The notes: generated by a model not told the origin, from the sequence alone. A DNA stretch of 57,008 nt from Prorocentrum cordatum (GCA_963575745.1 CAUYUJ010000051.1:62001-119008), one strand, 5' to 3'. Numbered from the stretch's first letter, positions 969 through 31,835 are shown. Translations and numbers: made by a program.

Positions 969-990
969 TCCGTAGCCATTTTGGCTCAAG
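969..990 (+). other. Dinoflagellate spliced leader (DinoSL) DNA copy at 5' end of LINE-A
   Basis: TCCGTAGCCATTTTGGCTCAAG, exact match to the 22-nt DinoSL consensus DCCGTAGCCATTTTGGCTCAAG. Confidence 0.97.
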
Positions 991-1100
991 TCCATAGCGG
1001 TTGCTCGAGGACGCGAGTTTTTTTGTGGCAAGGGCATTTCACGGCCGCACCACACATCGGTACTGCAGCTACCTGATCGCTCTTTACCGATGCCTTCGAT

Positions 1101-1368
1101 ATGGATGGTTTCTCTCATTGGACGTGCCCGAACACGAGGTGCGGAAACAATGGGAACTTCTCGTGGAGATCTACGTGTCGTGTGTGCAAGCAGGCGCCTC
1201 ACTGAGTTCCCGAACCCAAGCCAGCAGGATGTGCGCGTGGCAGCTGGGCCAAGGGGCCGCCAGCGCGTGACGCTCCGTCTAAGGGCAATAGCGTGCAGCT
1301 CACAGACTCGTTGGTCGCCATCTATGTCCGCATTCCCGAGGAAGAGTTCAAGTCTCTTGCGCAGTCGC

Positions 1369-1404
<36 letters not shown>

Positions 1405-2110: not shown

Positions 2111-2239
2111 CCAGTCACGCCGCCCCCGAGAAGCCGGGCTTCTCGCGCAATTTCCCCCACGATGCCATCAAGTCCATGCAGGGCGCGCGCAGCGTCGAGT
2201 GTTTAGCGCCAAGGTCTTTTTCACCACGGCCAGCGTCAC

Positions 2240-5200
2240 AGGGTGCTCTGGCCTTGAATGCGTGCTTGAACGCCAGGATGTGCTGAAACTGCGCGGCCCT
2301 GGCCATCCGAGAACATGATTTTGCCCAGGTTCACGCCTGGGAGGTGCGTTTTCGGAATTTGGGATGGTCTGCCAAAGGCTCGGCGGCAGAGATCACCCCA
2401 GCAGGTGGCACCTCTGGCTGTCTCTTTCAGATGGTGCAGAGGAAAGTCGGCATGGCAGAGCTACCTGATCAGAGTTTCTGCGTGGTCGACGCGCGTGTGA
2501 GCATACTCCACTTCTTTGCCTTGCGGCCTGATGGAGTGCTCTGGGCCGTTGTCTACCTTCATGACTCGCATGGTCTGCCGCCACAGAATTGCAAGTCATT
2601 GGCTGTGCCGGGGGGCAGACTGTATCGATGTGGGATGCCGTGTGTGGTTTCAGGTGACTGGAACATGACCCCCGAGGACGTCCAAGGTTCAGGCTGGGCC
2701 GACAAGCTCGGCGCCGTGCTGCTCGCGCTGGTCATCGCCGCATGCTCGCAGGGCGCCGTGCGCGCGCTGGACTGGTTCGCTGTCTCGCGCGGCTTGCGCT
2801 ACGGGGCCCAGGTGCGTGTCCTCACCGCCGTTGGCGCCAAAGACAGCAAGCCAGTTCAAGTCTCGCTCAGGGGCGCCGATGCGGGGGAAGCTCGGCAGGG
2901 CTTCGCCACAGTCCCAGCGCAGGAGTTCTTCGAGATTTACCAGATCCCCGATGAGGAGCGCAGCAGCTGCGTGGGGCGGGCGGCCTAGCCGCGCGCGCGG
3001 GCGCAAGCCGCCGCCCGCCGTGCAGCTTCTGTGCCCGCACGCGTCGCCTGTCGCCCCCCTGGTTTCGTGCGCTCAGCCAAGTGTTGCAGGGGCTGCCTCC
3101 TCCGCGGAAGCCCGCTGCTCGGGGCGCCGCCCTCAGTGCGCGCCTGCAGTTGCGTCGGTCTTCTGGGCCCCTTCCCGTCGGCGCTTGCGGGGCTTTGGCG
3201 CCTCCTCCTGAACGCGGCTGCTGACTTGGACTGGGGCTTGGTCAAGTCTTTAACCCTTGATGCTCGAGCCTCTGGCGAGAGGCTGCTGGCGAGCGCGGGG
3301 CTCGAGAGTGGCGGGGATGGGTCCGCGGGCGCAGCGGCGCTGGCGGAGGTGCTCTCTACGCTCTGTCCAAACCTGTCGTGCCTTCGCATTCCAGCCCTGC
3401 CTTTCAAGAATATGGCGCGGCCAGAGCCCCGCCGACCTCGCAGGGGCAGGAGATGTAGCTTCGCGCGGAGGAGTGGGGTCGGTATTGGTGTGTCGAACAG
3501 TTGGAGGATTGCAGTCAGTGGCCCGCTGACATGGGTCCACCATTGCCCGAGTTCAGCCTCGATGGGCTGCGCGAGTAACTGCGCCCGTTTAGGTTCGCCA
3601 GCGGCGCTGGCTTTGATCGGATCAGCCCTCGGCAGCTCGACGAGCTCATGGACGAATGGCTCGAGTGTCTTCCGCAGATCATCTTCTCGATTGAGTGCGC
3701 CTTCACCTGGCCGCGGGCGTGGTCCAGTATAGTCTTTTTTAATGAAGCGCTCGGGCGGCGTGCGCCCCGTTGCGCCACTCCACTTGCGCGCGCGCGTCCA
3801 GGGGCGCCTCCGCCGCCCCCTGCCCCGGGAGTGGCAGCGCGAGAACTCTCGGGGGTTCTGGTGGTCGACGTCGGGGGGGGGTCCGAGCGTTGGGTTTGAA
3901 TTCGCGCTGACACCTTTGAGTGGGCTGTGGGGCGAGGTCTTGCGGCGGGCGCGGTGCGTCTAGACCTGCGGAGAGATTTCGAGAACATGCGTCATGGCGC
4001 CCTGCTGGAGGCAGCTCGGCGCGCCACCTGTCCTTTGGGGCAGCTGAGGCTGCTCATCTCGCTGCGCGGGGCGCCGCGGGCGCCGGGGTGTGGCGGCGCG
4101 AACTCCAGCCCCGCCCTCGCTCAGCAGGCGGTGCTCGCAGGTTGCCAGTTTGCCGCTCTTTGTCTGCAGATGGTCGTTCTCTCCCCTCTCGACTTTCTGC
4201 AGGCCGCTTTCCCTGGGCAGACAGAGGGGGGAGTTCAGTTGGGGGCTGTAGTAGATGATCGTGGGCTGCGCAAAGTTGGCCGAGGGCAGCGCGCCCACCT
4301 GCGCCCCGCCAAGGCTACTGTCATGCTGCGCGGTGGGCGAGGACATTTTCGCCTGACAGTCGGCCGCCCCAAGGGTCGCATCCTCCCGTCCTTCTCGCGC
4401 ATGCGTCTGGGTCGCGCCGCCGTGCTTCGCTCTTGTCGGTATCTGGCCGCTCAGTTCAGGCGGAATCTTGGGGTTGACTATGCGGTTGGCGGCGTCATTC
4501 GCAGGGCCGCCGAGCGCAGTCGACGCGCTGCCGCAGTCACTTGTCAGGGCAAGATTGTTTGACTTGCCAGTCAACTTCGCAAGCGTCAGGTGCACGACGC
4601 CGTCCGAGCTGCCGCCCTGGCCCCCGTGTCATATGGGTCGGGGGTGGCGGGCGCTTCGGAGGCGGAGCTGCGCGAGGCGCGGCCCCTGCAGGCAAGTGTG
4701 CAAGCTCAGAAGCTCTCAGGGCGCAGCGTCGCGCTTCTTTTGCGTTTGGCGGGCGTCAGATAGGTTGACCCCGCCTCTTCCTTCTGCTCCGCCCCCTTGC
4801 TGCACCTCGCCTCGGCGGTCTGGGAGTCTCGGGTGCCTGGAGGCGCCCTCGCTGCAGGGCTCGAACGGCCGAGCGAGCGCTCGAAGGGCAAGGGTCGCCC
4901 TGGAAGGCCATCGGAGGGCCCCTTTTCCAGCTGCGCTGCGTCTGCTCGTGGGCTAGGCATCGAGATCGACGGTCTCGCCTGGTCGCGCCCGCCTGTTGGG
5001 TTTTTTCACCGGCCGAGCTTTGCGCGTGAGCGATCGCGCGATACTTTGATCAAATTGTCGAGCAGTGGTGCCGGCAGCGCGTGGCCGCGCATCTCGAGCG
5101 GTCTGAGTTTAGGTCCCGTGCTCGCGTTAGTGCTCGCAGGCATGCGGCGGCTCGAGGCTCGCGAGAGGGGTCATGTCGTTTCCGTCGTTGCGGGAGGCCA

Positions 5201-6669
5201 GTGACCCCAAGCCAGGCAAGCAGCGCTGCAGTTGTCTGATATCAGCGAGTGCCAGGTCTGCCAGGCGCCCCCAGGCGCTCTTGCGCATGGGCACCTCCCT
5301 TGTCCGGGGCACGAGGGCGCTTTCCAGGCCGAGGCCCCAGCTGTGCCAGCATATCTGGTTAGGCACCTCAATCGCCCCTCTGTCCGTCTTCTCGCGGAGA
5401 GGCTGCTGCTGCCGCTGCTTGCCCTCCCCGCTCCTCCCCTCCGCGTGCCTGGCGAGGTCCGGCTCAAGGGGGTACCTGAGCTCCTAGAAGGAGACATCTT
5501 TCTTGACGGCAGCCTCCTCGATTGTAAACTGCCCCCGCAAGCCCAGAACATGGGCCGGGCCATCGTTGCGTTGCGCGAGACCCAGGCCGTCCACGTGTGT
5601 TTCTTGGCTGGGGGGTTCAGAACTGGTCGCTGGTCTGTGTGACATTGATTGCGCCGAGCTCTGGGCCCTCCTGCATGCGCTGCGAGCTGCTCTGCCTGGC
5701 GCCACTTCTTGGACCGATTCTCAATTTGTGAATGATGGAGTCTTCAAGAGATCGACTCTATTTTTTTTGCCATGGCGGCGTGGGCCGACCTTTGGAACCA
5801 GGTGTGGGCCGCCATCGAGGATCGAGGCGGGGTCGAGTCTCTTCGGTTGTTCAAGCTTAAGGCCCGCATCTCTGCCGTGGACCTTGAGCAGGGGTGGATG
5901 ACCTTGCGCCGGCGTCAAGGTAACGTGCTTTCGGACAAGACGGCCAAGGATCGGGTATAGCCAGGACCCCGGGTAAGGTGATCCAGTTCGTGGTAGGGCC
6001 CTGGGGCCCCCCAGTTGGCCAGAGTCACTAAACCAGGCTTGCCGCAACTGGTGTTTTGCGGGTGACGGCAGTTCTGGTTCGTGGAAACGGGACGGGGGGG
6101 CGCCCCCGGTATAAATCACTAAACCAGGTTCCACCCAAACCAGTTCTGCCAACGCCCGAAAGGAGGCCGCCTGTTTTACTCGTGCCCCCGAGCGCTTTCG
6201 CGCGTGTTCCCGCTCCCAAGCAAATGCGCTGTCCTTCCTTACTGTATGGGTCGGACGCATCGGCTGAAATATGGCCGACGTCGACTGTTTGAATGTCCCT
6301 GTGAATGCCCGTGGCACTCGCAAGGAGGCCAAGTCTCAGTGTGTTTTGTGGCCGCCGCCTGTCGTCGTGCCGCCCATCCTCTCCAGGGCTGATGTGGCTC
6401 TCGCCGCTCTCCGCCGTGAGGGCTGCCGCATGCGCCAGGCCTTCCCGATTTCCGGGCGCCCAGGTCCAGGGGTTAGTTTGTGCTGTCTGTGGTGCGGGGG
6501 TCCATCTCTCCGCCGCCTTCAGAAGCCCCTGCAGTGGCAACCCGTCTGTTTGGGAAACGCGGGTGTTAAAACACTCGCAGACGGGAGGTACCTCCACGGC
6601 AAAAATTGGGTGCCCTTGTCCGAACCGTGGCGACGTCAGCTTCTCGTGGAGAGTGGCCAGGCGTTCTGA
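2240..6669 (+). pseudogene. LINE-A ORF2 remnant (AP-like endonuclease, reverse transcriptase, RNase H, C-terminal Cys motif)
   Basis: APE motifs VVYLHDS, SGDWNMTP, LDWFAVS; RT motifs LDLRRDFENM, VLAGCQFA, VVDD, NLGVDY; RNase H motifs IFLDGS, AELWALL, WTDSQFV, ADLWNQV, GNVLSDKTAK; C-terminal CLWCG. Many frameshifts and stops. Confidence 0.85.
5951..6159. mobile_element. 209-bp MITE inserted in LINE-A RNase H, 5-bp TSD AAGGA
   Basis: Termini TCGGG...CCCGA with imperfect ~17-bp TIR; AAGGA at 5946-5950 and 6160-6164; removing it restores the frame GNVLSDKTAKEAACFTRAPERF. Confidence 0.85.
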
Positions 6670-6964: not shown

Positions 6965-7064
6965 NNNNNNNNNNNNNNNNNNNNNNNNNNNNNNNNNNNN
7001 NNNNNNNNNNNNNNNNNNNNNNNNNNNNNNNNNNNNNNNNNNNNNNNNNNNNNNNNNNNNNNNN
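6965..7064. other. Assembly gap (100 N)
   Basis: Run of N between (GAG)n and (CCT)n tracts. Confidence 1.
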
Positions 7065-17530: not shown

Positions 17531-18380
<850 letters not shown>

Positions 18381-18499
18381 TATTTAGTACTCCGCGGCCC
18401 GCAGCCTCCCTCCGCCGCAGCACCGAAGCCCTGAGGAGGAGCAAGACAAGGGGAAGGAGAAGGAGAGGAGGACGGCCGGCCGCACTCATGCGGCAGCCA

Positions 18500-18676
18500 C
18501 CTGGGGTCCCAAGAGGGGCCACCCCCAGGAATAGCGCCTCGACGATGCGGACGAGCATGCCGAAGCAGTCCTCGAAGAGAGGCGCCCGAAAGCGCACTGG
18601 GGTCCCAGGAGGGGCCACCCCCAGGAATAGAAGCGCCTCGACGATGCTGACGAGCATATCGAAGCGGACCTCGAAA
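18500..18676 (-). repeat. LINE-B 3' UTR duplication (~96-bp period) carrying two conserved hairpins (18500-18529, 18597-18624)
   Basis: Sense CCTGGGG-GTGG-CCC-CTCTT-GGG-A-CCCCAGG and CTGGGG-GTGG-CCC-CTCCT-GGG-A-CCCCAG. Confidence 0.88.
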
Positions 18677-18755
18677 GAAGTAGGACTTATACCATGATAC
18701 ACATAGACGCCCAAGACCAGAAGTCTCAAAAGAATGAAAAGTCAGCACGACGAAA

Positions 18756-19960
18756 TTAGGTGCCGATATGCTCGGGCTGCTTGCTGCAAAATGCCACACG
18801 CCCCTTCGGTAGAATACCTCGGACCAATTTGCCCAAGTTCTGATGTCCGTAGTGACCCATCTGACCAGAACACACATTCGCCAACCTGCGCAGGAAATGC
18901 TTGCCGACACAACCGCAGCGCAGACAGGCATGGATCTGCAGGTCCTTGAAATAACCCAAGAGGTGGGACTCATGAATCGGAACTCCTTGTACATGAACTC
19001 CAACATCGCCTACTCTCTGAATGTGGCCCTTGAGAACACCCCCCAAACAGGGCGTCTCCAAGAACCTTTCCAACTTGCGACCACTCGCACTGCAACCACA
19101 AGCCGAACAATGAAATGATGTGCCCATGCCAGTGAAGACCTGGTGCTCGGACAGCTTGACACGACGACTGAACTTTTTCGCCATGGACCTCGTCGGACGG
19201 ACTCGTTTGGGCTCCGCCTCCGTCGCTGCCAGGAAAGCCTTGGCCAGGTGTTTGCGGACAGCACGACCGATTGCTTCCGCATACTCAAGAGACGCTGCCA
19301 CTGAACTATGAACAGCCACCACATTTGCCCAGTAACCAGCCGCTTCATCCGCTAAGGCGTTAGCGAGGTAGTGTTCGATCTGCGTCCCAGCTTGGATGGC
19401 CACCTCGACAGACATGTGGCTCTCGATCTTGACGACACTGAGCATAGATGGGTACTGCGCAACCACGTCCTTGACCTGCAGCCAAAGGTCCAGGTTCGTA
19501 GTCGGAAGCCGCCCTTGCGAGAGTTTGCGGAGCCCATTGACCACGTACCCCGAGTCCGTGACGAAGGTGATAGGGACCCCTAGGTCGAGCAGATCTTCTG
19601 CGGCCCTGAGCAAAGCCGTCGTCTCACCTCGGTTGATGGTCTGCTTCTTGGGGATGCCACCGCCTCGGGAGAACAAAAGCTGGACGTCTAGGTCGGTGTC
19701 GGAGGTCACCTTGATGACTTGATATGACCAGCCAATGCGCCGCAACCTAGCATCTGCAGAATGGAGCCCTCCTGAAGCATCACCGCCAACCAAGAGATGA
19801 TCGAGATCCCTGAGATCATCCTTATGGCCGATGACCTCATCATACGGGTTGTCTGTCGGCTCGTCCACCTTGGTCCAAGGAGCAGGCAGTATGCCCCTCA
19901 ACCACAAGCAGGGAAGGTTCTCGTAGTCCTGGTGGGCCCTGCTACGCAAGTTTGAAAGAG
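18756..19960 (-). CDS. LINE-B ORF2 C-terminal part: RNase H plus Cys/His motifs (frameshifted from main ORF2)
   Basis: RNase H motifs VGGDASGG, NRGETTAL, FVTDSGYV, NLDLW, KIESH, ANALADEAA; then H..FHCSACG and H..HACLRCG. Junction with the upstream frame near 19950-19975. Confidence 0.9.
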
Positions 19961-22900
19961 ACCGACGAGAACACATCATTGCAAGAACACGACCAACTAC
20001 GATGCAAATCGGTCTCTTCCAATCCACACTTGCAACGCTGACACTCGGTGGTGTCCAAATTGCTGCTGCTCAGGGTCGAGATCCTGCTGCGCGTCCACGA
20101 GGCTCCCGTCATGACAGTCTCGATAGCGCCTGCCATCTCAAACTCGCCCTTCTTCTTCAAAGATGTGAGGTGACGTCGAGCTTCACAGACGTCAGCTCCC
20201 TCTTCAAGACCTTTGCCATTCCAATGCCTCGAAGCCTTGTCCCAAAGCATACGGTCGATCGTATCAGAGATGGCATCTTTGAGGGCACTCATATCTTGGG
20301 GACCTTGACCGATGATGCGGTCTGGGGCCATAAATCTTTCTCCAAGATCGGAAATCCATGCCCAAGGTCCCACAGGGTCCCAACCAATGTCTAAGAGCGT
20401 GGCTATAGTTGCAGACACCACTCCAGTGATGCCTCTCCATCTGTCCTTCAAATCCCTGCTGTCAATCCGTCTTCGTGCCGTCCTCCAGGTACGACGTGCC
20501 AACTCTAGGTCGAAGCCTGGTTTGAAAATAATGGACAACCAAGATTCCACCAGCCTGTGCACGATCTGATACTGAGGGTCCTTGCGGCCGACACGTAGTT
20601 GTAAAAGAGTTGTGAGGCAACGACTTGGCCACTTCTTTGCCAGGGTCTGTCCCAGAGCTTTCCTCCAGCCGTTGATGACCGGCGGAGCCGCTCCAAAGAC
20701 TTTGTCCGAGTAGTCCGCCATCGGAAGAACACCCATCATGGCCAATTTAGCGCCGATCTTCTTGCGAACCGCACCTTGAGCAAACCGCTTGACACGAGTG
20801 AAACGCTGCTGAGCACCTCTTCGCCGCTGAGCCTGCTTCGGACGCCGAAAGCCAACCGTACCTCGATCGATGCCCAAGTCGGTGGCGACACTCTCGATCT
20901 TGACCTCGAAGCCCTCCTTGGCGAATCCTCGTTTCAACTCCTTGCCTAGCCCAGCATTGTTGGTAACTATCGTCGACTTTGCCGATATCACCAAACCTGC
21001 CTCAGAGCAACCTTTTGCAAAAGTCAAACCAGCTTGCAAGGCTAGTCCGAGAACTCTTTTGTATCTGCCTTCCACTCTTTGAGAAACGTCATCCACCCAG
21101 GACCTGACCGTAACACCAGGAGACCCCTGCGCCACTCTGTCCAAGATGTTGTACAAGGAACAACGAGAGAAACCCACTGCGCCGCCAAGTCCAGCTATCA
21201 TGCTCTGCTCGGGTATGATGGCATCAGAATAATAACCACTGTCACGGAGGAAACGCACTCCCATGTGTAAAATCATCTCCAATGCCAAGATGCACGGTGG
21301 AAAATCGTGCTCCATACCAGTCTCCAGTAAGAGCTGCCACTTGAGAGCGTCGTAGAACCCCTCAATGTCCCACAGCACGCTGGCCTGCACCCAATCTTTA
21401 ATCGTGGTGAGCGCGACCGTCTCGTCCAGGTAACTGCGAGCTAAGGCCTCGCGCAAGGCTGAGGAACCTGCCACTGCTGCATCCCAGTGCCCAGCCTTTG
21501 CCTTTGTCCAGCTGGCACGGTACTCGCCTCGACAACTTGACCAAAGCCTCGCCAAGGTCGATAATATGCCAATGGCCCTGTCGTCACCGCTCGGATTGCG
21601 TAGAAGAGTGACCAGAACCACCGTAAGTTGCCAAGGCCATGCCACTGACTGTTCGATAAGTTGAAACAGTTGGACCAGCTCCTGCTTACCTTGCTCGGGC
21701 AACCAGACGAGGTCCCTCTTCCCCAACTGCTCAATGCCCTTCGCCGACGTGCCCTTCATCCTTCGGATGCCGTCTTCCAGCGTCTCCAAGTCGAAGACAG
21801 GAAAAGCGTCTTCACGAGCGCGAGCCCTAGCACGTCCCAAGAGTATGGTGACCTGGCCGATGTCGAGCTGCCGGTCACTCCACTTCTTCTTCCACACCTT
21901 AGCCCGAATGTCCATCGCCGTGAGGGGGTCCGACGATATTACCTGGCCTTCCTCGAACTCATCCTTCGAGGTGGCCTTGTCCTTGATAAGTCGAAACAGC
22001 TTCCCAGGTGCGGCAACATACTGCTCCTCCGCCCATTGGGAGAAGGCCAGATACTGAGAATAACATTCCATCCGCTGCAAGCTGGCAGCAATCTTGCTGC
22101 TCTCGTCCTTGTAGCGCCTGATGGTGTCGTTCGTGGCGATGTTGAGCTGCCGCAGCTTCCTGCGCCAAGCCGTTTTCTCCTTGTGCGGGAGAGAAGCCAG
22201 GGTCGAAGAAGGAACCCAAGCCGTGGCCTCCCTGAGTCTGGTAATTAGCTTCCCAAACCGAGGCGATTCTCGCTTGGAACTGGCTCTGTCCAACTCCTCC
22301 AACAAGAAAGCAATCTTGGCCCACCAGTCCACTCCAGGATCCCGTGTGCGTGTAAATGGAGGGGACGGCACCACTTTATGAGTCCTGGTAAGTCGAGCCA
22401 AACCTCGGCCTCGATGGGCCTTGCTGTCTTTGTCCAGACCCTCGCCGTCGAGCAGGTGGCTGAAGAACTCTTCAACCTTGCCAGCCCACTCGCCGAAAGC
22501 AATGCCCAGCTTGCCAGCACTATCAGAGGTAAGCCTCCAAGCGTGGGAGTCCGTGACGCACGGCGGCGGTTCCGACCAGCGATGATCCTGAGGTATGCTG
22601 ATGGACGACCAAAGATCGGCACGCTGATCAACTGACCACTTAACGCCTAAGCCAGCTCCACCCCCTGGAGGGACCAGGCCTTCATCTTGATCCTCTGGTT
22701 CGTCAGGTAGAGGCTCGTCGTCGTCAGGCTCGCCCTCATCGCTCTCCGAATCCTCCCCAAGATCCATAGGACCCAAGAAATTGAATGGAGGAGGAGATTT
22801 GATACCAAGCCGCCGTCTCTCCCCAAGCTTGGCGATCCTCGGTCTCGCTGACGTTGGAGTAGCCACCACCACCAACTTCCTCGAGCGCTTGCTGTTTGGA

Positions 22901-25362
22901 TCCGCCTGCTTCTTGGGCTGCGACGGAGGACCAAAAGCCTTTGGTAGGCTAAGAGTACGTCCCTCAGCTGGCTTGGCAGCCAGAAGTAAATCCAATACAA
23001 TACCGTAATGCGCTTTGCCGCCTTCGCCCACTAAGTCCGTGTCGGCGTGAATGCGGTCCAAGTATTCCAAGGCAGACCCTGAGGCCACAACATAGTCTAG
23101 GAGCGTTCCCTGCCCTCCAGTGTACGTGTAGTCCACGTTGTCTGCCACCAGGATATTGCCTTGGACCAAATTGAGCCACCCGGCCTTGCGGAGGGTATCT
23201 GGAGGAAAATTCCAGTCGCATAAGATGACCCAAGGTGTCGATAAAGAGGAAACGAGTGAGGCCAAATGTCTAAGTTTCTCCACGTTGGCGCCCGTGATGC
23301 CCAGACCATTGTATAGGTAGCCCCCGATAATCGTGAGATGTGCACCTTTCAAAAGCACCTGCATCCCGACCAGATCCTTAAAACGAACTCCAGTGGTAAG
23401 AGCCGCCACGTCCTTCTTGCCTTTATCTGCTCGCTTACCAGGTAGCTCGTCCTTGTTGGAGGCCAAGTGCCTAAGTGACCAAGATGACCATTTCTTTGAG
23501 ACACCCATCGCGACACCACCAGCTTTCTTCGTGAAGATAGCCGACTCAGCACCCGCTGGGCACACCATACTTTTGTAACCAGCTTTATCAAACTCCACCA
23601 AGACGTCATTGGTTTCGGCCATGTCCATGTGGGTCTCCTGGATGATGACCGCGTCGTAGGACCGTTTCAACAGCGCCTTGGCCGACGTACCCCAGGTCGA
23701 CATGTTACGCATGTACACCCGAAACTGTGCACCATCTCCCATGTCAGCCTTTGCCTCCTTCTCGGTACTCTGAGTGGCCACAATAGCTTGTATGACCCAG
23801 TCCCAGAAGATGCACATTCGATCCTGAGCCTGATCGTCCTCCATGTCGCCGTCAGCTTGATCAGGAAAGAAACGATCTGGAGGAACTCGATTCCCAAGAA
23901 GGCGTCGAAACCGTCGGCGCAGCTCACTAAGGTCGTCGAAGTGCCATCGCAGGAATCTCCTGTAGCGCCTAGGGTTCCTGATGGAATTGAGCGTGTTGAA
24001 GAAGAAAGCCCTGTGCGGCTCCGCTGTAACCCATGCGCGTGTGCATAAATGTTCTGCGATGTCCTGCAACGACATGCGGTAGTAATTCTCCAGGTTCTGA
24101 CGGAGGCCGCGCATAGACCGACGTGAGAGCGATGCCACAGTGTACGGAACACACCACTCCTTCCAGTGCTCCAAAGAATTGTAGCGCTCGCCTCTGATGT
24201 CGTGGACCCACCTGGACGCGGCAGCCGTCATATCATACCTCAGATCTCGCCGCTCTCTGGCTCGATCCACTCTGGGAAGTTGAGGAGGTCGTGGCCGTCG
24301 ATCTCGAAGTTCAGAGCCTAAGTCAGCGTAGAGCTCCCAGGTAACCTTCCAGCCACTTGCCTCAATCGTGCCCTCGAGGAGAAGGAGACTGTCGTGCTTC
24401 GCGAACAGAGACCTTTCCTTGCCAACAGAGATCCGTGGCCAGTTTCCAACCCGAGCCAGCCCAGCAAGTGGCAACGACGAACGTGGCGACGTCGAACCTG
24501 GGTGTCCAGGATTTTGCATTCTGACGCCCGCCTGGAAAGAATCTGCCTGTGCCGTCGACTGCGATAAAAACATACCGCGGCCGAAATGGTTAATTGCCTC
24601 AAAGTGCTGCTGCGACACAAGCTGATCTGTCCAGGAATCTTGAAAGTTGACGCTGTCAAAAGTACGAGATAACTTCGAACCATGCCAGTGCCAAGCAGAT
24701 GTCTCAAGTGGAGTCGCCCCTTGCGAATAAAAACTACTGGGGCTGCTATTCCCAACCAACAATTCAGGGGTCCCGAGAGAAACCACCCCCTGCATCCCAC
24801 CATCTGGGTAATTGAAGTAACCACCACCAGAAAGCCCAAGAGAGGCTGCCATTTGAGACGCACGATCGTCCCAGAAAAAGCAAACCTGGTCCTCCCAGAT
24901 CGTGCCAAGGGTCCCGAGAGGGGCCACCCCTTGGTAGGCATGCTCCTCCAACGAGCTGCAGAAAGCCTCTGACTCGAACTTGCCAGGGGTCCCGAGAGGG
25001 GCCACCCCCTGGTATGCAGTCTCATCTGTGGAGCCGTGGACCGAGGCCTCCCAGTCCGTGCCAAGGGTCCCGAGAGGGGCCACCCCTTGGTATGCAACCT
25101 TATCTGTGGAGCAGTAGATCGTGTCATACCCGTCCGTGCCAAGGGTCCCATGAGGGGCCACCCCTTGGTATGCTAGTAAGCTGTCGTCGCCCTGGCCGAC
25201 GTTCGTGACAGGGGTCTCGAATGGAGCCACCCCCTGCAGTAAACTCGTGCCGCCGAAGTCCAGGCCAGGGGTCCCAGGAGGGGGCCACCCCCTGGAATAA
25301 CCTCCTGGAAGTCCAAGTTGATGCCGTACTTGCAGTAGATCTGCCCGACTTGCCCTCTTCAC
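19942..25362 (-). CDS. LINE-B ORF2: N-terminal extension, AP-like endonuclease, reverse transcriptase, Cys/His finger
   Basis: 1806-codon open frame; APE (~22990-23730) IIQETH, GGVAM, GGYLYN, CDWNFPP, LLDYVV; RT (~20860-21760) DRAIGIL, WDIEGFYD, SMIAG, SWVDD, DLGID; CQRC...HRSWSC. True start codon unknown. Confidence 0.93.
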   Translation of the reverse strand: MKRASRADLLQVRHQLGLPGGYSRGWPPPGTPGLDFGGTSLLQGVAPFETPVTNVGQGDDSLLAYQGVAPHGTLGTDGYDTIYCSTDKVAYQGVAPLGTLGTDWEASVHGSTDETAYQGVAPLGTPGKFESEAFCSSLEEHAYQGVAPLGTLGTIWEDQVCFFWDDRASQMAASLGLSGGGYFNYPDGGMQGVVSLGTPELLVGNSSPSSFYSQGATPLETSAWHWHGSKLSRTFDSVNFQDSWTDQLVSQQHFEAINHFGRGMFLSQSTAQADSFQAGVRMQNPGHPGSTSPRSSLPLAGLARVGNWPRISVGKERSLFAKHDSLLLLEGTIEASGWKVTWELYADLGSELRDRRPRPPQLPRVDRARERRDLRYDMTAAASRWVHDIRGERYNSLEHWKEWCVPYTVASLSRRSMRGLRQNLENYYRMSLQDIAEHLCTRAWVTAEPHRAFFFNTLNSIRNPRRYRRFLRWHFDDLSELRRRFRRLLGNRVPPDRFFPDQADGDMEDDQAQDRMCIFWDWVIQAIVATQSTEKEAKADMGDGAQFRVYMRNMSTWGTSAKALLKRSYDAVIIQETHMDMAETNDVLVEFDKAGYKSMVCPAGAESAIFTKKAGGVAMGVSKKWSSWSLRHLASNKDELPGKRADKGKKDVAALTTGVRFKDLVGMQVLLKGAHLTIIGGYLYNGLGITGANVEKLRHLASLVSSLSTPWVILCDWNFPPDTLRKAGWLNLVQGNILVADNVDYTYTGGQGTLLDYVVASGSALEYLDRIHADTDLVGEGGKAHYGIVLDLLLAAKPAEGRTLSLPKAFGPPSQPKKQADPNSKRSRKLVVVATPTSARPRIAKLGERRRLGIKSPPPFNFLGPMDLGEDSESDEGEPDDDEPLPDEPEDQDEGLVPPGGGAGLGVKWSVDQRADLWSSISIPQDHRWSEPPPCVTDSHAWRLTSDSAGKLGIAFGEWAGKVEEFFSHLLDGEGLDKDSKAHRGRGLARLTRTHKVVPSPPFTRTRDPGVDWWAKIAFLLEELDRASSKRESPRFGKLITRLREATAWVPSSTLASLPHKEKTAWRRKLRQLNIATNDTIRRYKDESSKIAASLQRMECYSQYLAFSQWAEEQYVAAPGKLFRLIKDKATSKDEFEEGQVISSDPLTAMDIRAKVWKKKWSDRQLDIGQVTILLGRARARAREDAFPVFDLETLEDGIRRMKGTSAKGIEQLGKRDLVWLPEQGKQELVQLFQLIEQSVAWPWQLTVVLVTLLRNPSGDDRAIGILSTLARLWSSCRGEYRASWTKAKAGHWDAAVAGSSALREALARSYLDETVALTTIKDWVQASVLWDIEGFYDALKWQLLLETGMEHDFPPCILALEMILHMGVRFLRDSGYYSDAIIPEQSMIAGLGGAVGFSRCSLYNILDRVAQGSPGVTVRSWVDDVSQRVEGRYKRVLGLALQAGLTFAKGCSEAGLVISAKSTIVTNNAGLGKELKRGFAKEGFEVKIESVATDLGIDRGTVGFRRPKQAQRRRGAQQRFTRVKRFAQGAVRKKIGAKLAMMGVLPMADYSDKVFGAAPPVINGWRKALGQTLAKKWPSRCLTTLLQLRVGRKDPQYQIVHRLVESWLSIIFKPGFDLELARRTWRTARRRIDSRDLKDRWRGITGVVSATIATLLDIGWDPVGPWAWISDLGERFMAPDRIIGQGPQDMSALKDAISDTIDRMLWDKASRHWNGKGLEEGADVCEARRHLTSLKKKGEFEMAGAIETVMTGASWTRSRISTLSSSNLDTTECQRCKCGLEETDLHRSWSCSCNDVFSSVSFKLA
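24695..25295 (-). repeat. Array of 9 hairpin repeats (~30 nt; five at exact 78-nt period) at LINE-B ORF1/ORF2 junction
   Basis: Copies at + coordinates 24695 (degenerate), 24765, 24827 (degenerate), 24905, 24983, 25061, 25139, 25209, 25265; sense consensus CCARGGG-GTGG-CCC-N5-GGG-A-CCCYTGG; translates as QGVAPLGT(L/P) repeats. Confidence 0.92.
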
Positions 25363-26704
25363 TGGCCTCCCCCTGCGCTGCTACCTGCCCAGGGCGGGGC
25401 GGGAGCCAGGGTTCTGCCGAGGGTGGGCTGCTAAACTGTCGACTGTCTGCCAACTGCACCTGCCCTCTTCCTGGCCAGCGCTTCGTCCATGATGGTGCGG
25501 AGCTCCGTCTGCTTGCCGCCGACCAAAGGAGATGCCCTCGCCCAGGAAAATTTTCCAGCCGCCCCTGTCTGAGTCGGTGCCGTAGGTGGCCCACCGCAGG
25601 GCCTGTGGCTGAGGTGGCCGTAGCCTCAGCGCCACCTGCATCACCAGATCCTCCTTCGCCTGGATTGGCCGCCGAAGCAGGCGGGCACGAACTGGATTTG
25701 CGCTTCTTGGCCTGTTGCCAAGATCCGATCTCCTCCACCTTCTTCTGCTGCTGCGAGGCCAAATTCTCCACCACCTTGCGGAACTGCGAGTCCAAAGCCG
25801 CACGGAACTCCGTCTCGAAATTGTTTTTTTTGCGCCGTTCGAACTCCTCACGATCGCTATCCTCAAGGTCCACGTCGTCGAAGAGCCCCCCGAAGCTGAG
25901 GTTGAGCTCCGCCTTTTGGTCCAGAAACTGACGGACGTCCAGAAACTGACGGACGTCCAGCTTCCCCAACTCAGATGGAGACGAAGGCGGGGCAGGCGCC
26001 AGCTCTTTGGCCACGAGCTCCTGCGCCACAATAGCATCTGCCAAGTTGCTCGCACAATCTCGGTAGAATCCCATAGCTTCTCCCAGCTCTTGCTCGAGAC
26101 GGAGAACACGCTTTGCCACCTTGTCCATGCTGGCCTCGGCCCGCTCAACCTTCTGCGACGCCTCCGTGAGCCTGACAGATGCAGGCTTCGATGGTGCAGC
26201 AGCGGGAATTTGGTTGACCAAGGTATCACGAAGTAACTTTGCCTGCTCAGCTGCTGCACCTCCCTTAGCGATAATGCGCTCCAAGGCCGCCTTTTCCCCG
26301 TCCGAGGCCCCAGAACCATGAAGAGCGTCTGCTGGTTGCGGTGCCCCACCTCCTGGTCCTGCGGGCTTACGTCCTTTGAGGAAACAGCCGCAGTACTGGC
26401 AGGTGTAGTCGAATTTCTCCAGCAGGTCATTGTAGCAGAACTTCCCACAAACTTTGCACCAGGTCGCATCTCGTCCAAGCTTGGGAAGAGCGATGCGCTG
26501 CGAGATGTTCTGTCGAAGATCTGCTCGAGGGGTCGCTGGTCGCCAAGGCTGCATCTTGAAATTGCCGTATGCGTTCGAGCTACCATCCCCAAGACTGGGC
26601 CCCTGGTCGCTGAGAGACATACTTGCGCCTGCCGTGGTCGAAGATTGATACCACGGTGCTCTGCTCTGCCAAGACTTATACTGCTGACGCCCTCCTTTCC
26701 CCAT
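25124..26704 (-). CDS. LINE-B ORF1 (C4 zinc finger + coiled coil; putative RNA chaperone)
   Basis: ATG at 26704 (MGKGGRQQY); WCKVC..TCQYCG finger; coiled coil ASQKVERAEASMDKVAKRVLRLEQEL; 18-bp internal duplication (LDVRQF x2). A frameshift near 25590 is possible, which would end it near 25430. Confidence 0.8.
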   Translation of the reverse strand: MGKGGRQQYKSWQSRAPWYQSSTTAGASMSLSDQGPSLGDGSSNAYGNFKMQPWRPATPRADLRQNISQRIALPKLGRDATWCKVCGKFCYNDLLEKFDYTCQYCGCFLKGRKPAGPGGGAPQPADALHGSGASDGEKAALERIIAKGGAAAEQAKLLRDTLVNQIPAAAPSKPASVRLTEASQKVERAEASMDKVAKRVLRLEQELGEAMGFYRDCASNLADAIVAQELVAKELAPAPPSSPSELGKLDVRQFLDVRQFLDQKAELNLSFGGLFDDVDLEDSDREEFERRKKNNFETEFRAALDSQFRKVVENLASQQQKKVEEIGSWQQAKKRKSSSCPPASAANPGEGGSGDAGGAEATATSATGPAVGHLRHRLRQGRLENFPGRGHLLWSAASRRSSAPSWTKRWPGRGQVQLADSRQFSSPPSAEPWLPPRPGQVAAQGEASEEGKSGRSTASTASTWTSRRLFQGVAPSWDPWPGLRRHEFTAGGGSIRDPCHERRPGRRQLTSIPRGGPSWDPWHGRV

Positions 26705-26826
26705 GAAGAAAGAATATGTAGTAGGAAACCTGTGGTGATCAGGCTCCTGAAAGCAATTGAGAACTGGCTGCGGACTAGCAGCTTCCACTTCGGCACGGAG
26801 GCGCGGAGCCCCCTGAGTGCAACCAT

Positions 26827-26863
26827 CTTGAGCCAAAATGGCTTGAGCCAAAATGGCTACGGA
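26827..26863 (-). other. Full DinoSL (26842-26863) followed by 15-nt relic SL (26827-26841) at 5' end of LINE-B
   Basis: Minus strand reads TCCGTAGCCATTTTGGCTCAAG-CCATTTTGGCTCAAG-ATGG. Confidence 0.97.
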
Positions 26864-27070
26864 GGAGGAGGAGGAGGAGGAGGAGGAGGAGGAGGAGGAG
26901 GAGGAGGAGGAGGAGGAGGAGGAGGAGGAGGAGGAGGAGGAGGAGGAGGAGGGAGGGGGAGGAGGAGGAAGGAGGAGGAGGAGGAGGAGGAGGAGGAGGA
27001 GGAGGAGGAGGAGGAGGAGGAGGAGGAGGAGGAGGAGGAGGAGGAGGAGGAGAGGAGGAGGAGGAGGGGG
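26864..27070 (+). repeat. (GAG)n microsatellite (polypyrimidine CCT on the LINE-B sense strand)
   Basis: Read directly. Confidence 0.95.
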
Positions 27071-29713
27071 AGGATGGGGACGGGGGGGGGGGGGGGGGAA
27101 GGCGGGGGAGGGGGAGGAGGGTGCGGAGAGGCAGCAGGAGGAGGCGGAGGGGGAGGAGCAGGACGGGGAGGAGGTCGGATGTTTGGGCTAAGGCCATATA
27201 TTTGGACCTGTGCCTGCTCATGCCGTGTTCGGAGCTGTCCCGTGGCCACGGTTAGAACCTAAGCGCCTGCGAAGCGCGCGCGTGGTTTTAGTATGCACAC
27301 ATATATTTACATACATCTATACATATTTATAGATGTATATATATGTATATATGTATATATATGTATCCCTGCCACTATGCTTGGTTTCGCCTAGTCTCGA
27401 AGCCAGCCCTTGGGGTCCCTTCAGTTTCGGCTGGCGCAATCTTAAGATTATCATCGCTATTTGGCTTGTCAACCTTCGGGGTCGGGATACGTTCGAGGCT
27501 GGTTATCCGACGGGTCGTGCTGTCCCCCACCTCCCTGGCGCAGTAAAAAAACACACGGGGGGCGGTTTTGGCAGTTTTCAGCGCCTGGAGGCCTTGACTC
27601 CTTCGAGTAACGGCTTGGGTTGACAAATTTGGTGTCAGGAAAAAGGGGCCAGGAGGTCGGGCACAAAAGGTTTAAGTAGGGGTGGCCTCGCTTGAAGGGG
27701 GACGCAGCAATGGTGGGATTGGTGGAACAGGAACGCGTTTGAACAAATCCCGCACTTTTCTTTCTGCTCGGCGTTGGGCGCGGCGTGGCAGGATGAGGAG
27801 GACGAGGAGGAAAAGGAGGAGGAGGAGAAGGACAGTGCGTGCAGGTGGTGACTGGCCGCGGTGACGATGGTGATGGTTTTGGTGGTGGGGATGGTGGGGA
27901 TGATGGTGGTGATGATTCCGTTGTTGGTGATGGTGAGAGGAATAATGGTACCGACGGCGGTGGTGAAGGTAGTGATGGTGGCGATGGTGGTGGTGGTGTT
28001 GGTTCTGATGGTTGTTATTCGGATGCTGGTGGTTTTTGGTGATTATGGTGCTGGTGCTGGTGATGATGGTTGTGTTAACAGCGACAGTGACTTCGGCGAA
28101 CGCGCTGGTGTTGACTGTGGTGATGCTCTTGTTGCGGATGAGGATGTCGCTAACCATTATGATGGCGATGGTTGTGAATGTGACATTGCTGACGGTGATT
28201 TTGCAGTGTTGACTGGTGGCGGTGATGTACATGACGATGAGGCGGAACTTCAGACGGAAGAAGAAGAGGATGACTACTGCAAAGCCAACGCGCCCCAACG
28301 ATGTTGCAATCAACCTCCGTCCATTCTTTTAAAAGGTCCCATCCAACACATTGTTTTCATTGTGGGACATGCCCCATTGAAGGACAACTTTCGGAATGAT
28401 GTAACGGCATAGTTTCTGAGTTCAGCGCTGCCAGTCAATCTGATTGTTGCGTCCTGCCATTCACTTCAACACCGTGGATCGGGTGGTTGTTGCCCCTTGA
28501 CAATCTTACATCGCCCTGGCAGCCATTTCAGGGACCTCAGGTTTACGAATCATTTCAAAGGCTGCAAACTAAATGACGAAGTGCCCCGCGTTTAAGCGAG
28601 ACCTACATGTTGTGAATTCCTTCCCACCCACCCTGGAAGTTGTTGCAATATTTCAAGGCGAATGTTGGCATTGATAAGGCGAGGGGCACATTAGGAAAAC
28701 GATCCGCCCTCCATCTTTGAAGCGGTTGCGCTTGTTAATCTTAAATATACCCAGGGTTTTTTTAGCGTTTTCAGTTCGGCGTCTTGGACATGTTTTACAG
28801 CGTTGTCAAGTCTCAACAACAAACTGAAAACGCTATTAACATAATGCGTTATTTTAGCGTTACCAGACCATGTTTTACCGCTTTCAGGTCCGTGGATTGC
28901 ATGTTTCCTTCTCTTTGCGTATCCCATCGTCTTCTTTTTGCAAGTTTGCTTTTCTGTGGCCGTCGCCGGAGTGCCAGATGGCGCGCCTGTTTCGCGCCAG
29001 CGTTAATTTGGTGTCACAGCGTTTTTTGGGTTTGCATTGTTAGGGGGGGCAAGGCGAATGGTGGCAGGGCGGGGAGCGCGGAAGCCAAGCTGACAGAGAA
29101 GACAAGGAGGAGCCTTAGACGATAATGCAAAATAGCGCAACAAAAGGCTGCACCACTGCGGCAGACCTCACAGCGCACCAAAAACGGATTTTAAAGCGCT
29201 AAAGCAACGTAGTGTGTCAGAACCCCCAACTGGAAAACGCCCCCCAAACGCCCGGGGAGTTTTTTAGATGAACCAAGACGGCTGCACATTTCAAATTTCA
29301 TGAACATACATGGCGAGGAAGTCTCAGGCGAAACGCCAGGCCCGTCCGCAACACGTCTGAGGGCGCGACACACAGGAATTATATATCAGGAAAAATGAAT
29401 ATGGAGGAAGAGGAGGGAGAGGAACTGGAGATGGGGGAGGAGGATGTGGGAGGAGGAGGATGAGGAGGAGGAGAAGGTGGGAGGTGGTGCGTGAGGAGGT
29501 GGGAGGAGGAGGAGGAGGAGGAGGAGGAGGAGGAGGACGAGGAGGAGGATGAGGAGGAGGAGAATCAGGACGAGGAGGAGGAGGAGGAGGAGGACGAGGA
29601 GGAGAGGGAGGAAGAGGAGGAGTGGAAGGAGGAAAAGGAGGAGGAAAAGGAGGAGGAGGACGACGAGGTGTAGGAAGCTTAAAATGCGGGCGTTCGTACC
29701 CCTCTCCGCGCAG

Positions 29714-30344: not shown

Positions 30345-31835
30345 ATGTTCATGATGGTGATGATAATGATGATGATGATGACGATGATGGTGATGATGAG
30401 GATGAGGATGAGGATGATGGTGATGAGGATGAGGATGGGGATGAGGATAAGGATGAGGATGCTGCTGCTGCTGATGATGATGATGCTGATGATGACGATG
30501 ATGATGCTGCTGATGATGATGATGATGATGATGCTGATGATGATGATGATGATGATGATGATGNNNNNNNNNNNNNNNNNNNNNNNNNNNNNNNNNNNNN
30601 NNNNNNNNNNNNNNNNNNNNNNNNNNNNNNNNNNNNNNNNNNNNNNNNNNNNNNNNNNNNNNNTGGAGAGGATGAGGAGGGAAACGGGGGGTGAGGAAGG
30701 AGGGTTGTGAGGAGGAGGAGGAGGAGGAGGAGGAGGAGGAGGAGGAGGAAGAAGAAGAAGAAGAAGAATACGAAGAAGCAGAATAAGACGAAGAATAAGA
30801 AGAAGAATAATACTACGAATAATAAGAATAATACGAAGAATGATAAGAATAAGAAGAAGAATACGAAGAAGAAGAATAATATTAATAATAAGAATAATAA
30901 GAAGAAGACGAATAAGAATAATAATAATAAGAAGAATAATAATAAGAATACGAATAATACTAATAATAATAAGAAGAAGAATAAGAAGAATAAGAATAAT
31001 AATAATAATAAGAAGCATACTACTAAGAATAATACTAATAATAATAAGAAGACGAATAAGAATAAGAAGAAGAATAAGAAGAATAACAATAATAATAAGA
31101 AGAATAATAATAAGAAGAAGAAGAAGAATAAGAAGAGGAGGAGGAGGAGGAGGAGGAGGAGCAGCAGGAAGAGGAGGAGCAGGAGCAGGAGGAGCAGGAG
31201 GAGGAGGAGGAAGAGGAGGAGTTGGAGCAGGAACAGGAGCAGTTGCAGGAGGAGGAGGAGGAGGAGGAGGAGGAGGAGGAGGAGGAGGAGGGGGAGGAGA
31301 AGGAGGAGGAGGAGGAGGAGGAGGAGGAGGAGGAGGAGGAGGAGGAGGAGGAGGAGGAGGAGGAGGAGAGGGGGGAGGAGGAGGAGGAGGAGGAGGAGGA
31401 GGAGGATAGGAGGAGGAGGAGGAGGAGGAGGAGGAGGAGGAGGAGGAGGAGGAGGAGGAGGAGGAGGAGGAGGAGGAGGAGGTTGAGAGGAGGAGAGGAG
31501 GCGGAGGGGGAGGAGGAGGAGGAGGAGGAGGCGGAGGAGGAGGAGGAGGAGTGGAGGAGGCGGAGGAGAAGAAGGAGGGGAGAGGAGCAGGAGGAGGAGG
31601 AGGAGGAGGAGGAGAGAGCAGGAGGAGGAGGAGGAGGAGGAGGAGGAGGAGGAGGAGGAGGAGGAGAGGAGAGGAGGAGGAGGAGGAGGAGGAAGAGGAG
31701 GAGGAGAGGAGGAGGAGGAGGAGGAGGAGGAGGAGGAGGGGAGGAGGTAGGAGGAGGAGGAGGAGAGGAGGAGGAGGAGGAGGAGGAGGAGGAGGAGGAG
31801 GAGGAGGAGGAGGAGGAGGAGGAGGAGGAGGAGGA
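29965..31835 (+). repeat. Compound microsatellite: degenerate (GAT)n, (GAA/TAA)n at ~30748-31135, (GAG)n
   Basis: Read directly. Confidence 0.95.
30564..30663. other. Assembly gap (100 N)
   Basis: Run of N. Confidence 1.

What the first reader, a model, noticed from the sequence alone, without database searches (positions are those of the whole stretch)
24695..25295. Covarying RNA hairpin array inside a LINE, repeated in its 3' UTR
Seen: nine ~30-nt repeats at the ORF1/ORF2 junction and two more in the 3' UTR (18500-18529, 18597-18624), ~6 kb away. All share the fold outer stem - GUGG/A internal loop - 3-bp stem - 5-6 nt loop. Stem changes are compensatory: outer CCAAGGG/CCCUUGG (24905, 25061, 25139), CCAGGGG/CCCCUGG (24983, 25265), CCUGGGG/CCCCAGG (18500); inner CCC/GGG, CUC/GAG (25209, 24695), UUU/GGG wobble (24765). 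Loops vary (CUCUC, CUCAU, CAUUC, CUCUU). The wobble pairs only work on the element's sense strand. The paired changes cause L/P and G/E substitutions in the overlapping frame, so RNA structure rather than peptide appears to be conserved. Known: LINE 3' UTR stem-loops can be ORF2p recognition signals. I know of no multi-copy internal array of the same motif. Inference: a multivalent protein-binding signal (ORF1p/ORF2p loading, RNP assembly) or a control element for ORF2 translation or processing.
Basis: partly seen in the sequence, partly recalled or inferred. Interest (0 to 1): 0.9.

Follow-up and report, generated by a model that had tools for sequence, protein, structure and literature searches.

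The report
Hairpin repeats inside a dinoflagellate LINE
A jumping gene in a dinoflagellate genome carries the same 30-base hairpin-forming motif many times inside its protein-coding region and again in its non-coding tail, which suggests a nucleic-acid signal rather than a protein motif, though its function is untested.

Summary
The repeats are real. There are eight clear ~30-nt units and one degenerate unit at 24698-25295, plus two at 18500-18529 and 18597-18626, all on the minus strand of one multicopy non-LTR retrotransposon. Its closest protein is annotated as Prorocentrum cordatum.

Evidence for conservation at the nucleotide level:
- The units vary far less than their spacers (4/30 against 31/48 variable columns).
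- Two units lie beyond the conserved stop codon.
- Four of 10 proposed base pairs show changes on both sides that keep pairing.

- The array is not between ORFs. The ORF1/ORF2 break here is a one-base insertion, absent from 3 of 3 other contigs, so the array lies in frame inside one polyprotein ORF (QGVAPLGT[L/P]G).
- Folding energy is no better than that of shuffled sequences.
- In context the hairpins are predicted more robustly on the antisense strand.
- The compensatory changes come from only about 4-6 events among paralogous units of one copy.

No family-wide DNA was available, so the covariation test across copies could not be run.

Best reading (0.45): a cis-acting hairpin module of the element, probably its RNA recognition signal, also kept in dual-coding form in the linker. 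The main rival is a neutral palindromic repeat.

The parts
26827..26863 (-). 5' end of the element: a full 22-nt dinoflagellate spliced-leader copy (26842-26863), then a truncated 15-nt copy (26827-26841), then ATG.
   Evidence: exact matches and flanks; 15-nt tandem x2.1. The identity of the spliced leader is recalled. PMC6050394 (abstract only) describes the 22-nt DinoSL as a marker of retroposed copies.
25296..26704 (-). ORF1-like N-terminal part of the polyprotein. It starts at the first Met (MGKGG...) and holds a Cys-rich CxxC...CxxC segment and a Lys/Glu-rich middle part. No Pfam family matches.
   Evidence: translation; no Pfam hit at E<=0.01. P0007 carries the same Cys-rich segment.
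24698..25295 (-). In-frame array of 8 clear hairpin units (U1-U8) and one degenerate unit. Each unit encodes Q-G-V-A-P-x-G-T-[L/P]-G. Start-to-start spacings are 69, 78, 78, 78, 141 and 69 nt.
25280..25284 (-). G5 run (+ strand) inside unit U1 that holds one extra base private to this copy. This base creates the apparent ORF1/ORF2 split.
   Evidence: table 4: at 25280 one base is left out in X1 at depth 27.4 of 27.4 (2 contigs) and in X2 at 2.9 of 2.9 (1 contig). One search gives the sequence context.
23065..23670 (-). Endonuclease/exonuclease/phosphatase (APE-type) domain.
   Evidence: PF03372, E 3.5e-5, 24.1 bits (cut-off 24.5), residues 244-445 of the piece 19945-24399. The relative P0009 passes the cut-off (26.0 bits).
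20380..22182 (-). Reverse-transcriptase-like region. The WVDD motif at about 21088-21099 aligns to YVDD of P0009.
   Evidence: BLASTP E 3e-22 to P0009 residues 987-1588, which span its RVT_1 hit at 1179-1373. There is no direct Pfam RVT hit.
19955..19957 (-). A-run holding a second one-base difference, which splits ORF2 from the RNase H frame in this copy.
   Evidence: at 19956 one base is left out in X1 at depth 27 of 38.5. P0005 reads through this point in one frame. One search gives the context.
19407..19658 (-). RNase H domain.
   Evidence: PF00075, E 1.5e-4, 22.4 bits (cut-off 25.8). P0009 scores 29.2 bits.
18756..18758 (-). TAA stop of the polyprotein.
   Evidence: P0005 ends with the same C-terminus...SKQPEHIGT.
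18500..18675 (-). 3' UTR tandem of two units, each about 96 nt long and each holding one hairpin unit (T1 18597-18626, T2 18500-18529).
   Evidence: (18597-18675 against 18501-18576, 88.6% over 79 nt). Other copies carry units at periods of 52-56 nt (table 5c).
18321..18380 (-). Triplet microsatellite directly after the presumed 3' end. The same triplet repeat (26861-27000) precedes the 5' spliced-leader copy.
   Evidence: (GAG x20 at 18321-18380; GGA x46 at 26861-27000).

Best explanation
The units are a conserved, hairpin-forming nucleic-acid module of a multicopy APE-type LINE. This LINE has one long polyprotein ORF and its mRNA is spliced-leader trans-spliced. The module occurs as tandem units in the true 3' UTR. 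It also occurs, in dual-coding form, as an in-frame array in the linker between the ORF1-like part and the endonuclease.

The most likely role is a cis-acting recognition signal on the element's RNA for its own protein, comparable to the 3' stem-loop of stringent-type LINEs. The internal copies would add binding sites next to where the nascent protein emerges.

Shown: the motif, its positions, nucleotide-level conservation, retained pairing, and the single ORF.
Inferred: that the hairpin forms in RNA, that a protein binds it, and that it serves retrotransposition.
For: 1. Discrete module in two unrelated contexts. Only the ~32-nt unit is shared between the array and the 3' UTR (25268-25299 against 18599-18629, 93.8%).
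2. Non-coding copies. The stop at 18756-18758 is shared with the paralogue P0005. In other copies the 3' units recur at 52, 55 and 56 nt, which are not multiples of 3. The extra array unit seen in another contig has a 72-nt period (table 5c).
3. Nucleotide-level conservation. Among the four 78-nt tandem periods, 4 of 30 hairpin columns vary against 31 of 48 spacer columns (Fisher p 7.7e-6). Third codon positions vary in 2 of 10 against 10 of 16 columns (p 0.051).
4. Pairing kept through change. 96% of cells pair against 86.8% in shuffles (0/500). The covariation score is 0.349 against 0.185 (0/500). Double-change cells number 9 against 3.1 (1/500). Slid controls give 54% and 67% at best. RNAalifold finds the same structure. 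Each double change combines one silent and one amino-acid-changing substitution.
5. The outer stem does not follow from the core. Of 55 chance matches of the core in metagenome contigs, 0 have 3 or more outer pairs.
6. The peptide has no relatives outside the family among 1.84 billion representatives.
7. The motif is confined to the element within the window. After the 10 units (37.7-59 bits), the best covariance-model hit scores 14.1 bits.
8. Precedent. Stringent LINEs need a 3' stem-loop, in UnaL2 one with an internal loop (PMC4176376 and PMC1636434; abstracts only).
Against: - Folding energies are not better than shuffles. Single units give z -0.58 to +0.66. The sense array gives z +1.46, and most local hairpins are missing from its MFE structure.
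- With unlimited span, sense-strand outer-stem probabilities in the array are at most 0.38.
- The antisense strand predicts the outer stems better: 0.65-0.88 for U2-U7 with span 40 and z -2.27.
- The inner 3-bp stem has probability at most 0.47 in 9 of 10 units.
- The double changes reduce to about 4-6 events. U3/U4/U6, T1/T2 and U2/U8 share states, probably by descent. The measure 'pairs with a double change' is not significant (70/500).
- U8, the ninth unit and partly U7 have lost pairing, yet the frame stays open.
- All evidence for pairing comes from one element copy. No family-wide alignment and no RNA data could be obtained.
Confidence: 0.45

Rival explanations
1. Neutral palindromic minisatellite. 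The units are a coding tandem repeat in a tolerant linker, plus a tandem repeat in the 3' UTR. Concerted evolution (gene conversion, unequal exchange, RT template jumps) keeps them alike. Their arms are kept complementary by template-switch (quasi-palindrome) mutation, not by selection for a function.
For: - The units are tandem and vary in copy number between genomic copies.
- U4 and U6 hairpins are 100% identical while their spacers are 58% identical, which fits short-tract homogenisation.
- There is no thermodynamic signal above composition.
- Decayed units are tolerated.
- Template switching is reported to create and maintain perfect hairpin stems (PMC8794818; abstract only).
Against: - It does not explain why only the 30-nt core is homogenised in two different sequence contexts about 6 kb apart while the spacers diverge.
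- It does not explain why the asymmetric GUGG/A unpaired bases are nearly invariant.
- Template switching would tend to make the whole palindrome perfect, including those bases.
Confidence: 0.25
2. The hairpin acts as DNA or on the antisense strand. It could form in first-strand cDNA, as a cruciform in genomic DNA, or in an antisense transcript. Possible roles are template jumping or strand transfer, recombination or array expansion, or a source or target of silencing small RNAs.
For: - The outer stems are predicted more robustly on the + (antisense) strand: probabilities 0.65-0.88 for U2-U7 and 0.71 and 0.86 for T1 and T2 with span 40, and z -2.27.
- 64 of 70 outer-stem cells are Watson-Crick pairs, which serve either strand.
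- Copy number of the units varies between copies.
Against: - G.U cells favour the sense strand 5 to 1, which is not significant.
- No antisense transcript or small-RNA data exist here.
- The asymmetric unpaired bases are conserved in sequence, which suits recognition of one particular strand, but it does not say which strand.
Confidence: 0.12
3. The peptide Q-G-V-A-P-x-G-T-[L/P]-G is the selected feature, for example as a repeated short linear motif in a disordered linker. The 3' copies would then be by-products of duplication.
For: - All 8 clear units and the degenerate one lie in the same frame of the long ORF.
- The paralogue P0003 keeps QGVAPLETP where the window's U8 has decayed.
- Decayed units keep a similar peptide, QMAASLGLSG.
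Against: - Third codon positions in the units are as conserved as the other positions.
- T1 and T2 keep the same nucleotides after the stop codon, and in other copies they recur at periods that are not multiples of 3.
- Radical L/P, G/E and Q/L replacements are accepted exactly where they restore pairing.
- The peptide has no relatives outside the family and no Pfam hit.
- The shared frame follows automatically from in-frame duplication.
Confidence: 0.08

Closest known systems
3' UTR stem-loops of stringent-type LINEs (eel UnaL2, zebrafish ZfL2), recognised by the element's own ORF2 protein
   Same: A short hairpin with a conserved internal loop lies in the 3' UTR of an APE-type LINE, upstream of a short-repeat tail (PMC1636434 and PMC4176376; abstracts only). 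Here T1 and T2 lie 120-250 nt before a triplet microsatellite.
   Different: - There is no sequence or model similarity: Rfam gives 0 matches in gathering and E<=1 modes.
- The 3' units are tandem and variable in number.
- The same module is repeated 8-9 times in frame inside the coding region, which I do not know from those elements (recalled; searches found no such report but were not exhaustive).
- Binding and requirement for mobility are untested.
CR1/L2-type LINE 3' ends (hairpin plus microsatellite-like tail)
   Same: Hairpin followed by a simple-repeat tail at the 3' end (recalled knowledge, not checked in a paper here).
   Different: The clade is unassigned here. The protein finds no solved-structure relative by sequence. 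The tail could equally be the insertion target, because the same triplet repeat flanks the 5' end.
Dinoflagellate retroposed genes carrying relic spliced leaders
   Same: A full plus a truncated spliced-leader copy lies at the 5' end (26827-26863). This is the described hallmark of repeated retroposition of trans-spliced mRNA (PMC6050394, abstract only; PMC11453091, passages).
   Different: Here the retroposed unit is the autonomous retrotransposon itself, with endonuclease, RT-like and RNase H parts, not a cellular gene.
Hairpins created and maintained by template-switch mutation
   Same: Short inverted repeats whose arms change together (PMC8794818; abstract only).
   Different: That is a mutational origin, not a function. 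It does not predict the invariant asymmetric unpaired bases, or the selective conservation of the core against its spacers.

Membership tests
APE-type non-LTR retrotransposon (LINE) | Apurinic-like endonuclease (EEP) domain N-terminal to the RT | tested here: met
   PF03372, E 3.5e-5, 24.1 bits, just under the 24.5 cut-off. The homologues score 22.0 bits (P0006) and 26.0 bits (P0009). The EN regions align to P0009 with E 2e-6.
APE-type non-LTR retrotransposon (LINE) | Reverse transcriptase domain with the YxDD catalytic motif | tested here: met
   There is no direct Pfam hit. The evidence is indirect: BLASTP E 3e-22 to P0009 across its RVT_1 hit, with WVDD aligned to YVDD.
APE-type non-LTR retrotransposon (LINE) | Dispersed multicopy family with diverged copies | tested here: met
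   383 contigs of run X1 lie on 18350-27000, with 71/125/84/103 in the identity classes >=99, 95-99, 90-95 and <90%. A 94%-identical paralogue and a 58%-identical chimeric gene model lie on other contigs.
APE-type non-LTR retrotransposon (LINE) | Defined 3' end, tail and target-site duplication | tested here: inconclusive
   Triplet microsatellites flank both ends. The ends of other copies could not be read from the contig tables.
Stringent-type LINE 3' recognition stem-loop | Hairpin in the 3' UTR close to the 3' end, kept in other copies | tested here: met
   T1 and T2 lie after the conserved stop. Contigs from other copies join 3' units at periods of 52-56 nt (table 5c).
Stringent-type LINE 3' recognition stem-loop | Bound by the element's ORF2 protein and required for retrotransposition | not testable with these tools
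   Needs a binding assay or a retrotransposition assay.
Stringent-type LINE 3' recognition stem-loop | Shared with a partner SINE or non-autonomous element | not tested
   No genome is held. Within the window the motif occurs only in this element.
Any described RNA family (Rfam 15) | Match to a curated covariance model | tested here: not met
   0 matches at gathering score over the whole window. 0 matches at E<=1 over 18300-25400.
Structured RNA supported by covariation | Significant compensatory changes across independent sequences | tested here: inconclusive
   The signal is positive on 10 paralogous units of one copy. It rests on few independent events, and one of the count measures is not significant (70/500). 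No family-wide alignment was possible.
Structured RNA supported by covariation | Thermodynamic stability above composition-matched background on the sense strand | tested here: not met
   z is -0.58 to +0.66 for single units and +1.46 for the array. The 3' UTR as a whole gives z -1.91, but T1 is mispaired in its MFE structure.
Protein tandem repeat or domain | Peptide conserved in homologues beyond the immediate family | tested here: not met
   HMMER against 1.84 billion representatives returned 4 hits. One is the window's own fragment, one is a 78%-identical paralogue, and two are unrelated repeat proteins. No hit came from proteins of 996-3171 aa. There is no Pfam hit at E<=10.

The most novel reading that the evidence does not exclude
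A dual-coding hairpin array serves as a loading platform in cis. In a single-ORF, trans-spliced dinoflagellate LINE, the RNA just downstream of the ORF1-like coding part carries 8-9 copies of the hairpin that also marks the 3' end. The nascent polyprotein would then coat its own mRNA through multivalent binding and be handed to the 3' units for target-primed reverse transcription. The peptide would be a by-product, forced to follow the stem changes.
Probability: 0.25. Interest if true: 0.8.

Novelty: new variant of a known kind. Interest (0 to 1): 0.55.

Why it matters
How a LINE protein picks its own RNA (cis preference) is only partly understood, and dinoflagellate retroelements are almost undescribed.

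A recognition hairpin present both in the 3' UTR and as an in-frame array in the coding linker would be a new layout for such signals. It would also be a clear case where RNA pairing dictates amino-acid replacements.

It would give a compact motif (covariance model R1) with which to trace this family, and any non-autonomous partners, in very large dinoflagellate genomes.

If the neutral-palindrome rival is right, the locus is still a tidy natural example of compensatory-looking changes arising without function.

Tried and rejected
- Whole genome: none is held for this window.
- Earlier findings of this scan: nothing by sequence or by place.
- Metagenome scan with the core pattern: 55 loci, each with a single match. 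None has 3 or more outer-stem pairs and none has a tblastn hit to ORF2, so they are chance matches in unrelated G+C-rich contigs. They served only as a control.
- Viral contigs: 2 single pattern matches, not examined further. No relative of the ORF2 alignment was found.
- Rfam: no match in either mode.
- Array peptide: no Pfam family and no long protein with it. Among the HMMER hits, P0002 and P0004 are unrelated repeat proteins.
- Solved structures: no meaningful sequence match for ORF2.
- Sequencing runs: no RNA holder is listed, so nothing can be said about expression. X4 laid no contig. X2 and X3 are metagenomes with small shares of the words.
- Covariance-model hit at 6086-6116 (14.1 bits): unrelated by eye.
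- Reading the U1 frameshift as a programmed frameshift site: rejected, because the extra base is absent from the other contigs.
- Reading the array as an intron: rejected on general grounds (inference), since a retrotransposed copy of a spliced mRNA would have lost it.
- The open alternative frame 25381-26856: taken as a by-product of G+C content, because the frame with the Cys-rich segment is the one shared with P0007.
- The third homologous-protein search was not spent. Searches already covered array-bearing proteins of all lengths at representative level.
Full report
**What is there**

On the minus strand the window holds one retroelement, running from about 26863 to about 18381.

Its 5' end is a full 22-nt spliced-leader copy followed by a truncated 15-nt copy and an ATG (26827-26863). 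That this is the dinoflagellate leader is recalled. PMC6050394 (abstract only) describes the 22-nt DinoSL as the mark of retroposed copies.

The best protein match is 94% identical and is named by its source as Prorocentrum cordatum. The window's 55-65% G+C fits the 59.7% reported for that genome (PMC10666404, passages).

The long frame contains these parts:
- An endonuclease domain: PF03372, E 3.5e-5, 24.1 bits against a 24.5 cut-off.
- A region that aligns at E 3e-22 to P0009 across that protein's RVT_1 hit, with WVDD opposite YVDD.
- An RNase H domain: E 1.5e-4.

The family is multicopy. In run X1, 383 contigs lie on 18350-27000 at 80-100% identity.

**The repeats**

- The core GGGGTGGCYCC occurs exactly 8 times in 57 kb.
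- TRF reports a 78-nt period x3.5.
- I find eight clear units (U1-U8, 24698-25295) and a ninth, degenerate one at about 24835-24862 (score 20; 9/500 shuffles reach it). T1 and T2 lie at 18597-18626 and 18500-18529.
- A covariance model built on the ten units finds nothing else in the window. The units score 37.7-59 bits and the next hit 14.1 bits, unrelated by eye.

**Correction 1: the array is not between ORFs**

In this copy the ORF1-like frame (25124..27187) and the ORF2 frame (19942..25380) overlap at unit U1. U1 is 31 nt instead of 30 because a G-run holds five G.

In the contigs of other copies that base is absent. X1 lacks it at depth 27.4 of 27.4 (2 contigs) and X2 at 2.9 of 2.9 (1 contig). 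The ORF1-like frame reads ...LFQGVAP up to that base, and the ORF2 frame reads PGTPGLD... right after it. Without the extra base the two are one frame.

Likewise, one base at 19956, in an A-run, is absent at depth 27 of 38.5 in X1. The paralogue P0005 reads ORF2 and the RNase H part as one protein.

The family therefore encodes one polyprotein of roughly 2,600 residues, and the array is an in-frame linker that reads Q-G-V-A-P-x-G-T-[L/P]-G. Either base could be an assembly error or a real mutation. I cannot tell which.

**Correction 2: the two 3' units are truly untranslated**

- The TAA at 18756-18758 ends the frame, and P0005 ends with the same residues.
- T1 and T2 sit in two tandem units, each about 96 nt long (88.6% over 79 nt).
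- Contigs from other copies join 3' units at periods of 52, 55 and 56 nt, which are not multiples of three. An extra array unit in another contig has a 72-nt period (table 5c).

**Nucleic acid or peptide?**

- Among the four 78-nt periods, hairpin columns vary in 4 of 30 cases and spacer columns in 31 of 48 (p 7.7e-6).
- Third codon positions vary in 2 of 10 against 10 of 16 columns (p 0.051). Pooled over unit pairs they are identical in 54 of 60 against 59 of 96 comparisons, but those pairs are not independent.
- Only the ~32-nt unit is shared between the array and the 3' UTR.
- The peptide has no relative outside the family in 1.84 billion representatives, none among long proteins, and no Pfam match.

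I conclude that the conserved object is the nucleotide sequence.

**Is it a base-paired structure?**

For:
- On alignment A1, 96 of 100 cells pair (86.8% in shuffles; 0/500 reach it).
- The covariation score is 0.349 against 0.185 (0/500).
- Double-change cells number 9 against 3.1 (1/500).
- Sliding the partner by one column drops pairing to 54% or 67%.
- RNAalifold finds the same ten pairs.
- Each double change joins one silent and one replacement substitution: CAA/CAG with CTT/CCT, CAG/CTG with CCT/CCA, and GCC/GCT with GGG/GAG.
- The outer stem does not come with the core. None of 55 chance core matches has three or more outer pairs.

Against:
- The units are paralogues. U3/U4/U6, T1/T2 and U2/U8 share their states, so there are only about 4-6 events. 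The count of pairs with a double change is unremarkable (70/500).
- Single units fold no better than shuffles: z is -0.58 to +0.66. The outer stem appears in the MFE structure of 8 of 10 units.
- The 631-nt sense array gives z +1.46 and loses most local hairpins.
- With a 40-nt span limit, sense outer-stem probabilities are 0.80, 0.75, 0.65, 0.55 and 0.40 for U3-U7, 0.06 for U2, 0 for U1 and U8, and 0.46 and 0.60 for T1 and T2.
- On the antisense strand they are 0.65-0.88 for U2-U7, and 0.71 and 0.86 for T1 and T2. The antisense array gives z -2.27.
- The inner 3-bp stem is weak, at most 0.47 in nine of ten units.
- G.U cells favour the sense strand only 5 to 1.

**Mechanism**

I rate as most likely (0.45) that this is a cis-acting hairpin module of the element's RNA. 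It would resemble the 3' stem-loop with internal loop that stringent LINEs need for recognition by their own protein (PMC4176376, PMC1636434; abstracts only). It would be duplicated into the linker, where it must also code. Binding, strand and function are inferred, not shown.

The rivals are:
- A neutral palindromic minisatellite kept alike by conversion and template switching (PMC8794818, abstract only): 0.25.
- A role as DNA, cDNA or antisense: 0.12.
- A peptide motif: 0.08.

**Limits**

- No genome is held.
- The metagenome and viral collections hold no relative.
- Only one read-laying run was available, and it shows summary tables, not sequences.
- The proposed family-wide covariation test was therefore not possible.
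- Searches found no report of such an internal array. They were not exhaustive.

Noticed in passing
window 26827-26863 (-): The autonomous LINE itself starts with one full and one truncated spliced-leader copy. Its mRNA is therefore trans-spliced, and it was apparently retrotransposed full length at least twice.
   Followed up: partly
window 969-990 (+), ORF 1090-2286 (+): A second full spliced-leader copy sits directly after a (GAT)n(GAG)n microsatellite. The 398-aa ORF downstream has no Pfam family. It is possibly another retroposed gene.
   Followed up: partly
window 18321-18380 and 26861-27000: The element is flanked on both sides by the same triplet microsatellite (CTC/TCC on its sense strand). 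This could be insertion into a microsatellite, a target preference, or a microsatellite tail. The window is full of such repeats.
   Followed up: no
window 25919-25960: An 18-nt tandem duplication (x2.3) in the ORF1-like part encodes LDVRQF twice. It is absent from other copies: 18 bases are left out in X1 at depth 21 of 21 and in X3 at 6.19 of 6.19.
   Followed up: partly
window 25381-26856 (-): The ORF2 frame is open for 491 codons upstream of the array, apart from one stop at 25381-25383, and it overlaps the ORF1-like frame. I take this as an effect of G+C content, but it was not tested further.
   Followed up: no
window 18479-18494 (-): A further perfect 6-bp hairpin with a 4-nt loop lies directly after T2 in the 3' UTR. 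It is part of the MFE fold of the 3' UTR, which gives z -1.91.
   Followed up: no
P0007 (protein from another contig): A deposited gene model fuses the ORF1-like Cys-rich segment and pieces of the RT region of this family to unrelated Ala/Pro/Arg-rich sequence. It is probably a chimeric model built over a deleted copy.
   Followed up: no
window 6965-7064 and 30564-30663: Two runs of 100 N (scaffold gaps), both inside microsatellite tracts.
   Followed up: no
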